Part shown: piece after piece, positions 17,467-20,400 of the stretch
Layout of the letters: every line of letters begins with the position of its first letter
Numbering within the stretch: position 1 is the first letter of the stretch
Origin: Paraspadella gotoi
Lineage: Eukaryota; Animalia; Chaetognatha
DNA: 64,000 bases
Assembly (NCBI GenBank): GCA_051294375.1
Contig: CM119270.1
Coordinates: forward strand, 16,799,904 to 16,863,903
Reading direction: 5' to 3'
Position numbers and translations under genes: made by a program
Notes under the pieces: model-generated
Seen by the model: the letters and a program-made list of their open reading frames with translations, nothing else
Databases searched by the model: none
What the model was told of the DNA's origin: nothing

Positions 17467-20400
17467 TCATCGGTTGTTGTTGGGCTTGGGTCGGAATCGG
17501 GCCGCGGCCGGCCCGCCCCCTTTGCCCCCCATGGCGCCCCACGGGCCCTTTCCCGCCATGGCCAGGTTCTGTTGACGCCACTGGGACTCCAGTTTGCAGA
17601 AGATGCCGCCCGAATATTCTTTGGACTTTAACCTCTCGGCTTTTTCCGCGTATCTGACGGTGGAGCGGGGAGGGGGAGAAAAGGTAAGTAGGACTAGGAG
17701 AAGGGTAAGGGAGAATTAATTTCATTCGGTCATTGCTCTAAATCACTTGTTCAATCCGACTCAATCAACTCTCAATCACTCACTCCGACCACATTAATTC
17801 ACTTATCACAACTTAATCACCCCTCAATCACTACCCCGTCCTCATTAATTCACTTATCACAACTTAATCACCCCTCAATCACTCACCTCCATCCTAACAT
17901 TAGTTCACTTATCACAACTTAATCACCCCTCAATCACTCAACTCCCGTTCAATCATTAATTCACTTATCACAACTTAATCAGCCCCTCAATCACTCACCC
18001 GATCCATCATTAATTCACTTATCACAACTTAATCACCCCTCAATCACTCAATCACTCACCCGTCCTCATTAATTCACTTATCACAACTTAATCACCCCTC
18101 AATCACTCAATCACTCACCCCGACCACATTAATTCACTTTCACAACTTAATCACCCTCAATCACTCAATCTCTCACTCCGACCACATTAATTCACTTATC
18201 ACAACTTAATCACCCCTCAATCACTCACCCCGTCCTCATTAATTCACTTATCACAACTTAATCACCCCTCAATCACTCAATCACTCACCCCGTCCACATT
18301 AATTCACTTATCACAACTTTATCACCCTCAATCACTCAATCACTCACTCCGACCACATTAATTCACTTATCACAACTTAATCACCCCTCAATCACTCACC
18401 CCGTCCTCATTAATTCACTTATCACAACTTAATCACCCCTCAATCACTCACCCCGTCCTCATTATTCACTTATCACAACTTAATCACCCCTCAATCACTC
18501 AATCCTCACCCCGTCCTCATTAATTCACTTATCACAACTTAATCACCCCTCAATCACTCAATCTCTCACCCCGTCCTCATTTTGGTGAGGTAAGCGATGA
18601 TCTCGTTCAGTCGGCTTTGATCCTCTTCCCTTTGCGCGTCTTGGTTCCATCGAAGAGATCTGAAGAGGGACGGGAGTGACGACAACAAAGTCAAGATGGG
18701 GAGGAGAGAAAGTTTTATTACTGTCTTATGATAAAGCCATCAGCTCGTGACCAATAGGTACCCGGATCGATCCAAAACCCCCTAAGGGAAACAGCTGCTA
18801 ACCGCCTTGGGTGCGCAGAATAGGTACCACTGGGGATCGATCCCCTTCCATAATGGTCATGAGTTCAATGAGCCACCTTGCCTCAATTGAATAAATCATT
18901 TTTATAGACGGGGACGGAAGGGTGTGTCAAAATCCAAAAGCTGTTTCTGATCCTAAATTACATCTAACACCATAGGGACAACTTGGCGCAATGCAGAGGG
19001 TCAAGTCTCACGTTAATCGAGACGTTAATCATGATGCAAGCGACTGTTTTTTCCCGTTCCTCCAATTCTTGTCGCTGCCCATCTTCTTATACCTTCCAAA
19101 ACGCCTTTTCTCTTTTCATCTGTTTCTGTTCCAAATGTCCTTTCCACTTTCATCTCTTGCTCTCCCCATCTCTAACCCATTCCATCTCTCTCCATCCCCA
19201 TCTGTTCCCCCACCCATCTACCAACCTATTGCTGTCCCATCTGCTCTTCTTCTCCGCGTTGTAGTTGGGCGCGTCGAGCAAGATTCCTTGCGGATCCATC
19301 TGCAATCGTTTGAGGCGAAGATTTCCCGTTTTGATCACGTGACTCGGTTCTTCGTCGCCGATTTCGTCGTCCTCGTCGTCGTCGTCGCTGGAAATTTTAA
19401 AAATGGAGAGGATGTAAAGTAATTTATTAAATATAGATAATAATATTTATAAAAACAGAATTTTTTTTTTTTTCAAGCGCCGAAACTGAAACTTCTTAAT
19501 ATTCATCAACTTGAAAAATGTAAGCGACATCATGACTTAACCGACAAAAAAAAAAAGAGCACCTGGTGTCGGCCGTATCGTCCAGCTCGTCGGGACTCGC
19601 GGCGCCACCTTGAAGACTCCGCGTGGAAGTGAGGGAAGACTGAGCGACGGCGCGAACGTCTCCTTTGGCTGCGAAGAACAAAAAATTGGGGGGGGGGAAT
19701 TAAGAGAGAGGAAATTAGTCAAGGTTTGTTTGTTTGTTTGTTTGTTTGTTTGTTTGTTCATCTCTCGCACAAAATGATAGATTCATTTAATGAATATTTA
19801 TCACTCTATTAAATGAATGGATAATTTTTATATTGGTTATACCAATTTCACAAAATGAACTGAAGTGTTTGTAATTAAGTATGGATTGATAGATGGAATG
19901 ATCGAATTGATAGATTCATTGATTAATTGATAGATTCATTCATCTATTAATAACTATAATGATTGAATGAACGATTGAATGAATTGACGGATCGTTCAAG
20001 CTTTGAACCTTACCTTTGGCCCCCACTTCAGCGGAGGCAGGCGTGGAGCTGGGCGGCGTTCCGTCCTGCCATCCAGCGACGAACTCGTCTTGTTCGAAGA
20101 CGTTCAAGTCCTGACTTCCGCTCTCCAGGATCTTTTGATACTGAAGGATTAGGTTGATGTAAATTTAATTATTATTTTTAGAGATGAAACGAAAAATTCG
20201 TTGGAATAGCAATTTTATTTTAATATTGTACATGTTTCGACTCTTAGTGGTACGAGTCTTCATCAGCAATACAATTATTATTTTGAAATATTTGACTACT
20301 TTAAGCGTTCCTTAAACTAACGTATTTATTACTTTAAAGACAAATAAAAAATGTAATGATTTTATATTTGGTTTCGATTGGCAATCCGATCGGGAATCCC

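What the first reader, a model, noticed from the sequence alone, without database searches (positions are those of the whole stretch)
20223..20272. Intact hammerhead ribozyme in sense orientation inside a SANBR intron
Seen: the minus strand reads GTATTG CTGATGA A GACTC (10-nt loop) GAGTC GAAA CATG TA^CAATAT, a complete type I hammerhead with paired stems I and II and a GUA triplet. It lies in the roughly 275-nt intron between exons 20416-20656 and 20014-20140, on the transcribed strand. Known: minimal type I hammerheads with a tiny palindromic stem III are characteristic of Penelope-like elements and retrozymes and cleave mainly as dimers. Inference: every SANBR pre-mRNA carries a potential self-cleaving site. 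It could be inert as a monomer, or be activated in trans by pairing with transcripts from other family copies, which would couple SANBR output to retroelement expression.
Basis: partly seen in the sequence, partly recalled or inferred. Interest (0 to 1): 0.8.

Follow-up and report, generated by a model that had tools for sequence, protein, structure and literature searches.

The report
Penelope-type hammerhead stub in SANBR intron
A complete small self-cutting RNA motif sits in a spliced intron of the SANBR gene, but it is one 94-base copy of an abundant dispersed repeat, likely left by a Penelope-type jumping gene, and it is predicted to fold shut, so it is likely an ordinary passenger.

Summary
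The minus strand at 20272-20223 reads as a complete small type I hammerhead of the Penelope-element kind: extra A after A9, G10.1-C11.1, and an ACAUGU palindrome in place of a stable helix III. It lies in sense in a 275-nt SANBR intron that an RNA contig splices out exactly. It is not a lone host motif. It heads a 94-nt insert (20272-20179) between 12-bp direct repeats (likely target-site duplication), the stretch is high-copy in all five DNA runs laid, and two decayed copies lie in this window. At that density about one SANBR-sized gene in ten would carry a sense copy. The duplicated target end supplies a competing helix over the cleavage site: predicted catalytic helix I falls from 0.94 to under 0.01 in the whole intron. 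Published Penelope hammerheads do not cut as monomers and cut poorly as dimers, or need the element's protein. No parent reverse transcriptase was found, so the Penelope origin is inferred. Cleavage and conservation in relatives are untested. The scan noted the same arrangement in at least 11 other genomes. Verdict: ordinary retroelement stub; regulation in trans is possible but unsupported.

The parts
20223..20272 (-). small type I hammerhead motif of the Penelope-element kind
   Evidence: sequence; features as in PMC4209133
20267..20272 (-). helix I, 5' strand (GUAUUG); 20272 is the first base of the insert
20259..20266 (-). core C3-A9 (CUGAUGA) plus the extra A between positions 9 and 10.1
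   Evidence: PMC4209133 lists this extra base as conserved
20239..20258 (-). helix II (5 bp, G10.1-C11.1) with 10-nt loop; loop length varies among family copies
   Evidence: pair probability 0.98-1.0 in all contexts; indels at 20245-20253
20229..20238 (-). G12 A13 A14, palindrome ACAUGU (20235-20230) and A17; predicted cleavage 20229^20228
   Evidence: (monomeric helix III not formed; palindrome duplex -4.6 kcal/mol)
20223..20228 (-). helix I, 3' strand (CAAUAU); U at 20223 differs from most family copies (A), so the sixth pair is particular to this copy
   Evidence: table 3
20179..20272 (-). 94-nt non-coding insert: hammerhead plus about 45 nt of A/T-rich tail shared with a high-copy family
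20273..20284 (-). 5' copy of 12-bp direct repeat AAAATAATAATT (likely target-site duplication); its last bases form the competing helix
   Evidence: 2 of 5000 shuffles reach 12
20167..20178 (-). 3' copy of the 12-bp direct repeat
20225..20275 (-). competing helix AUUGUA 20275-20270 with UACAAU 20230-20225, predicted to pair U16.1 and A17
20141..20415 (-). SANBR intron, 275 nt, GT-AG; 169 nt without the insert and one repeat copy
   Evidence: (RNA contig joint 20140-20416)
20416..20655 (-). SANBR exon upstream of the intron
20014..20140 (-). SANBR exon downstream of the intron
1302..1350 (+). decayed sister copy of the core (helix II base altered, helix I broken)
31953..32003 (+). decayed sister copy (G16.2 replaced by A, bulged helix I with an AAACG 5' strand)

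Best explanation
The motif is the head of a 94-nt solo copy of a high-copy dispersed repeat, likely a pseudo-LTR stub of a Penelope-like retroelement, that sits in sense in a spliced SANBR intron and is predicted not to cut the pre-mRNA. Shown: intact core; 12-bp direct repeats at both ends; high copy number with decayed sisters; exact splicing of the intron. Inferred: a Penelope-like endonuclease nicked an A/T-rich site in a 169-nt intron, reverse transcription began inside an uncleaved element RNA about 50 nt past the cleavage site and stopped at the start of helix I, and repair duplicated the 12-bp target. In the pre-mRNA only helix II is predicted to form; helix III cannot form in one molecule, and the duplicated target end pairs over the cleavage site. 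The intron would be spliced and degraded with the ribozyme uncut. The core is intact because the insertion is fairly young (2 listed differences from most family copies outside loop II), not because the host needs it.
For: Penelope hammerhead hallmarks all met. 12-bp direct repeat abutting both ends, 2 of 5000 shuffles; it ends in ATT, the motif that the anole Penelope-like protein cuts most often (PMC11167929). Summed contig depth over 20178-20269 far exceeds the unique flank in 5 of 5 DNA runs laid (X1 up to 312,000 vs 60; X7 about 3,000 vs 16; X2 about 105,000 vs about 200; X5 733 vs 14; X6 1,914 vs 15), and several long contigs match only this short stretch inside other flanks (table 8). 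3 cores in 61.6 kb, 2 of 3 decayed; about 0.1 sense copies expected in SANBR's 4.3 kb of introns. Catalytic helix I pair probability 0.94 from the insert's first base, 0.35 with 4 nt of flank, 0.09 with 8 nt, 0.007 in the whole intron. Published: a Schistosoma minimal motif shows no monomer cleavage and low dimer cleavage (PMC4209133); the anole motif needs the element's protein, and no RNA-seq reads end at its site (PMC11167929). 42-44% of Xenopus retrozyme copies lie in introns (10.64898/2026.07.22.740005).
Against: No Penelope reverse transcriptase or GIY-YIG frame was found (0 such Pfam hits among 150 window frames; none apparent upstream in L001/L002), so the parent is inferred from the motif. 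Depth sums are no copy number. A/T-rich control window pairs reached a 12-base match in 12 of 240 cases (most inside one tandem repeat), so the direct repeat is less rare than the shuffle test says. No empty-site allele was listed, and the 5' junction is in 3 samples and the 3' junction in 2, so the copy may be fixed. The private change at 20223 adds a pair to helix I rather than breaking it. Family-like contigs are in the RNA-like run, so partners may exist. Folding models ignore tertiary contacts, proteins and folding during transcription. No cleavage assay.
Confidence: 0.75

Rival explanations
1. Same inert passenger, other parent: a monomer or fragment of a non-autonomous hammerhead element (non-LTR retrozyme or SINE-like repeat) rather than a stub of a coding Penelope-like element.
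For: No coding parent seen. This genome is noted by other, unchecked reports to hold several ribozyme-bearing non-coding repeats. Retrozyme monomers are dispersed and often intronic.
Against: No tandem unit here; 94 nt is far below the 220-350 nt retrozyme units; helix II of 5 bp with the extra base and a 2-nt palindromic loop 3 fits Penelope motifs, not canonical retrozyme motifs.
Confidence: 0.1
2. Incidental cutting without selected function: when the parent element is expressed, its RNA or its protein occasionally helps this copy fold and a small share of SANBR pre-mRNA is cut.
For: Core intact; anole Penelope hammerhead is protein-assisted; family-like contigs are in the RNA-like run; during transcription the insert-only fold has helix I at 0.94.
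Against: The blocking flank is transcribed before the motif; the double-hammerhead dimer is +1.1 (50 nt) to +4.5 kcal/mol (66 nt, flanks left unpaired) above two monomers; the protein-binding part of the anole RNA lies in the first 172 nt of its reading frame, more than this stub holds; the 3' splice site follows 88 nt after the site.
Confidence: 0.1
3. Domesticated switch: trans pairing with sister transcripts through helix I and the ACAUGU palindrome cuts the intron before splicing and lowers SANBR output when the retroelement family is active.
For: Sense orientation, intact core, sixth helix I pair gained at 20223, present in the samples where a junction is shown. Intronic ribozymes that act on the host mRNA exist (Cpeb3, PMC10919898; RECK and others proposed, PMC6155905).
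Against: One sense copy in a gene of this size is a roughly 1-in-10 event at the local density. Predicted blocked fold and unfavourable dimer. Loose-end consensus points to subfamilies with other helix I arms, which could not pair with this copy (agreement only about 0.5-0.6). The Cpeb3 ribozyme has a 2-3 min half-life and 9,931 nt to the next exon; here there are 88 nt. No conservation data.
Confidence: 0.04
4. Chance look-alike in A/T-rich intron sequence.
For: No Rfam hammerhead hit; weak folding z-score.
Against: 0 matches in shuffles; 25 invariant core columns among 5 aligned copies, which were picked by that core; helix I arms change in step in two unrelated metagenome contigs (CAUAC/GUAUG, GGGC/GCCC).
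Confidence: 0.01

Closest known systems
Small-palindrome type I hammerheads in pseudo-LTRs of metazoan Penelope-like elements (Cervera and de la Pena 2014, PMC4209133; parts 1-2 of 4 of the text read, supplements not seen)
   Same: Extra base between 9 and 10.1, G10.1-C11.1, palindromic 15.2-16.2 and loop 3, type I topology, mostly single dispersed copies, thousands per genome, families with variable sequence.
   Different: Helix II is 5 bp (7-8 in Schistosoma, 6 in D. virilis); no linked reading frame shown; this family is not shown to be described.
PAc, Poseidon element of Anolis (PMC11167929; passages and section 3 part 2 read)
   Same: Hammerhead near the pseudo-LTR end; A/T-rich target with ATT; copies made from uncleaved RNA by internal priming would keep the whole motif, as here.
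   Different: Mechanism shown there in vitro, only inferred here; two-site 'tail' ends not tested here.
Metazoan non-LTR retrozymes (PMC7229834, passages; 10.64898/2026.07.22.740005, part 1 of 5 and passages)
   Same: Type I hammerhead with weak helix III, dimer-dependent; monomers dispersed and often intronic.
   Different: No tandem array, 94 nt rather than 220-350 nt, no loop 1-loop 2 contact evident, no circular RNA shown.
Domesticated intronic ribozymes: RECK and C10orf118 hammerheads, CPEB3 HDV-like ribozyme (PMC6155905, PMC10761166, PMC10919898; passages)
   Same: Sense-strand self-cleaving motif in an intron of a conserved gene.
   Different: Those are single-locus, conserved across mammals or amniotes and active as single motifs; this is one copy of a high-copy repeat with likely target-site duplication, no stable helix III and no conservation evidence.

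Membership tests
Type I hammerhead ribozyme | Core C3-U4-G5-A6-N7-G8-A9, G12-A13-A14, A15.1-U16.1, H17 | tested here: met
Type I hammerhead ribozyme | Helices I and II can pair; ends open at helix I | tested here: met
   (6 bp and 5 bp); helix I is displaced in intron context
Type I hammerhead ribozyme | Stable helix III in one molecule (canonical, monomer-active form) | tested here: not met
   2 pairs with a 2-nt loop; as expected for the dimer-dependent form
Type I hammerhead ribozyme | Match to an Rfam hammerhead model | tested here: not met
Type I hammerhead ribozyme | Self-cleavage | not testable with these tools
   only contigs available; they cannot show RNA ends
Penelope-like element hammerhead (pLTR) | Extra base between 9 and 10.1; G10.1-C11.1; palindromic 15.2-16.2 and loop 3 | tested here: met
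   A20259; G20258-C20239; ACAUGU
Penelope-like element hammerhead (pLTR) | Many dispersed single copies in families with helix covariation | tested here: met
   helix I covariation indicated by low-agreement loose ends and by L001/L002
Penelope-like element hammerhead (pLTR) | Same motif flanks an RT plus GIY-YIG reading frame somewhere in the genome | not testable with these tools
   no genome held; none in the window
Penelope-like element hammerhead (pLTR) | Retroposition scar at an A/T-rich target | tested here: met
   12-bp direct repeat ending in ATT; no empty-site allele seen to confirm it
Non-LTR retrozyme | Tandem units of about 220-350 nt, each with a hammerhead | tested here: not met
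   single 94-nt copy, nearest sister 11.7 kb away on the other strand
Domesticated intronic ribozyme (RECK/CPEB3 kind) | Conserved at the orthologous position across species | not testable with these tools
   all 9 holders listed are one organism; no relatives' genomes
Domesticated intronic ribozyme (RECK/CPEB3 kind) | Able to fold and cut as a single motif in context | tested here: not met
   by prediction only

The most novel reading that the evidence does not exclude
The SANBR intron copy is a retroelement sensor: shut by its own target-site duplication, it is opened and cut only when a sister transcript with the matching helix I, or the parent element's RT-endonuclease protein, is present, so that host gene output drops when the Penelope family wakes; hundreds of sense intronic copies could then form a genome-wide response.
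Probability: 0.04. Interest if true: 0.75.

Novelty: new member of a known kind. Interest (0 to 1): 0.12.

Why it matters
As it stands it matters little: dispersed single Penelope-type hammerheads are known to number thousands per animal genome, and a share must fall in introns in sense. One small, testable point: the duplicated target end is predicted to switch this copy off, which suggests asking genome-wide whether sense intronic copies are more often blocked or decayed than antisense ones, a way to learn whether these motifs cut in vivo at all. If trans activation were shown it would be the first case, to my knowledge, of a host gene controlled by an intermolecular double hammerhead.

Tried and rejected
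Rfam: no hammerhead hit. Whole genome: none held, so no copy count, strand-bias test or parent search. Pfam on 150 of 151 higher-complexity frames of 75 aa or more (247 frames in all; one duplicate left out): no RT or GIY-YIG. Family-specific pattern in metagenome contigs: 0; general core: 2 loci, both solo, no evident RT upstream in 80-240 nt; viral contigs: 0. ESM Atlas on one exon: no usable hit. Sequencing runs: no holder on record as RNA; X8 is a guess, supported by exact splice joints. 7 of 9 runs were laid (not X3, X4). X9 shares contigs with X8 and is not independent. No unique-intron cover in X8/X9 and no empty-site joint listed: holes prove nothing, the downstream flank had no cover, and 2 joints were not shown. 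No direct repeat around the two decayed copies (best 7 and 5 bases). Tandem retrozyme rejected (no unit repeat). Short frames from the two ATGs in the insert (32 and 22 codons) rejected as genes: family copies carry single-base indels there. The 129-nt dimer energy (+20.8) was not used because flanks were left unpaired. Literature: SANBR + ribozyme and KIAA1841 + hammerhead gave 0 papers. Lunse et al. 2016 on dimer cleavage of such variants is not held and is known here only from a review's passage and reference list; it may report faster dimer rates than the 2014 paper.

Full report
Observation. Helix I is GUAUUG/CAAUAU, the core is CUGAUGA, one extra A precedes helix II (GACUC/GAGUC, 10-nt loop), then GAAA, and the palindrome ACAUGU leads into the GUA triplet, with predicted cleavage between 20229 and 20228. 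The pattern is not chance: 2 exact matches in the window against none in 100 shuffles, and 3 matches with up to 4 mismatches against none in 10 shuffles. Rfam gives no hammerhead hit at either threshold, and the isolated fold is only modestly stable (z -2.38). Helix III would be two pairs closing a 2-nt loop, so it cannot form in one molecule.

Host gene. Three exons match PF11822 BTB_SANBR above its cut-off; a fourth exon finds 21 SANBR/KIAA1841 relatives among 39 candidates, best in bivalves at 64-65%; tblastn of three of them lays the gene collinearly from about 24,050 to 17,550 on the minus strand, with the two flanking exons meeting at residues 487|488 of the oyster protein. One 2,548-nt contig of run X8 joins seven exons and skips exactly 20141-20415 with GT-AG ends. 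So the intron is real, spliced, and the motif is in sense.

What the motif belongs to. Laying public contigs shows a sharp repeat: summed depth over about 20178-20269 is 50 to several thousand times that of the unique flanks in 5 of 5 DNA runs. The tool warns that this is no copy number; I read it only as 'many copies'. Long contigs carry the stretch inside unrelated flanks (table 8), one contig holds an inverted join (20221-20263), and loop II varies in length among copies. Two sister cores lie in the window, at +1308 and +31959, both damaged. The ends of the repeat fall at a 12-bp direct repeat, AAAATAATAATT, at 20284-20273 and 20178-20167; 2 of 5000 shuffles reach that length, though 12 of 240 A/T-rich control pairs do, most inside one tandem array. 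The insert is thus 94 nt, starts on the first base of helix I, and leaves a 169-nt intron when removed, like its neighbours (86-345 nt). This copy differs from most family contigs at 20204 and 20223; the second change creates the terminal G.U of helix I. Loose-end consensus suggests subfamilies with other helix I arms, such as AAAACG with CGU.. (low agreement). The same core stands in two unrelated metagenome contigs with helix I arms changed in step. The 5' junction is seen in samples S1, S4 and S5 and the 3' junction in S3 and S4; no empty site was listed, but cover was incomplete.

Comparison with print. Cervera and de la Pena 2014 (PMC4209133, parts 1-2 of 4 read) name as hallmarks of Penelope-element hammerheads the base between 9 and 10.1, G10.1-C11.1 and the palindromic 15.2-16.2/loop 3, and report that most copies are single and widespread, that a single motif did not cleave and that dimers cleaved weakly. 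All sequence hallmarks are met here. For the anole element PAc (PMC11167929, passages and section 3 part 2), the protein cuts mostly at ATT in A/T-rich DNA, starts reverse transcription inside the RNA, uses uncleaved RNA, and the hammerhead cleaves only with the protein; no RNA-seq reads ended at its site. That explains a short stub that keeps the whole motif. In Xenopus 42-44% of retrozyme copies overlap introns (10.64898/2026.07.22.740005). I found no parent reading frame and no genome is held, so Penelope origin is an inference from the motif and the scar.

Would it cut SANBR pre-mRNA? By prediction, no. The last bases of the duplicated target join the insert's first bases to give AUUGUA, which pairs with UACAAU across the cleavage site (-3.7 against -2.2 kcal/mol for the catalytic register). 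The catalytic G-C pair of helix I has probability 0.94 when the RNA starts at the insert, 0.35 with 4 nt of flank, 0.09 with 8 nt and 0.007 in the whole intron; helix II stays formed throughout. A double hammerhead of two such copies lies 1.1 (50 nt) to 4.5 kcal/mol (66 nt) above two free monomers. These models omit tertiary contacts, proteins and folding during transcription. Timing also speaks against an effect: the site is 88 nt from the 3' splice site, whereas the Cpeb3 ribozyme, with a 2-3 min half-life, has 9,931 nt (PMC10919898, passages). Location needs no selection: 3 cores in 61.6 kb give about 0.1 expected sense copies in SANBR's 4.3 kb of introns (rough, from three copies).

Against my reading. 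The core is intact, helix I gained a pair, the copy is in every sample where a junction is shown, family-like contigs occur in the RNA-like run, and protein-assisted cleavage is a documented route to activation in trans. Lunse et al. 2016 could not be read and may show faster dimers. Nothing here measures cleavage or conservation in other species.

Earlier scan notes. A word search returned 11 findings in at least 11 genomes; the 8 shown describe the same arrangement (intact hammerhead, sense, intronic, solo copy of an abundant repeat) and the same verdict. They are unchecked and not independent support; one mention of a target-site duplication came before my own test of it. No look-alike of this insert's sequence is on record. 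Two paper searches found nothing on a ribozyme in SANBR/KIAA1841.

Verdict. A real, new member of a known kind: a likely Penelope-type pseudo-LTR stub in a spliced intron, likely inert (0.75; 0.85 if the parent's identity is left open). Regulation by trans activation is the bold reading, about 0.04. Interest 0.12.

Noticed in passing
window ~5,700-11,240 vs ~11,500-16,850: A large inverted duplication, arms 88-100% complementary, hinged at a short N run near 11.4 kb; real palindrome or assembly artefact.
   Followed up: no
window 19807-19850: A second, far more abundant short repeat in the next SANBR intron (summed depth up to 1.9 million in X2, 62,567 in the RNA-like run).
   Followed up: no
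window 23892-23957 (-): Likely 66-nt GT-AG intron without a stop in frame, inside the SANT-coding part of SANBR; appears as a 22-residue insertion against homologues. Retention would keep the frame.
   Followed up: partly
window 19563-19668 (-): Additional SANBR exon shown by the RNA contig.
   Followed up: partly
window ~17,780-18,570 (-): Tandem repeat of about 55-60 nt filling the last SANBR intron, whose unit begins with the end of the preceding exon.
   Followed up: no
window ~47,900-49,200 vs ~52,950-54,300: Direct duplication with an offset of 5,060 nt (identical hits at 48206 and 53266; matching frames).
   Followed up: no
window 43035-44348 (-): Long frame with C2H2 zinc fingers.
   Followed up: no
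window 20128, run X2: GATC put in beside a GATC site in a coding exon in one contig; likely a restriction-ligation library artefact rather than a frameshift allele.
   Followed up: no
window 20221-20263, runs X1 and X2: One contig joins two family copies on opposite strands, an arrangement described for Penelope-like insertions.
   Followed up: no
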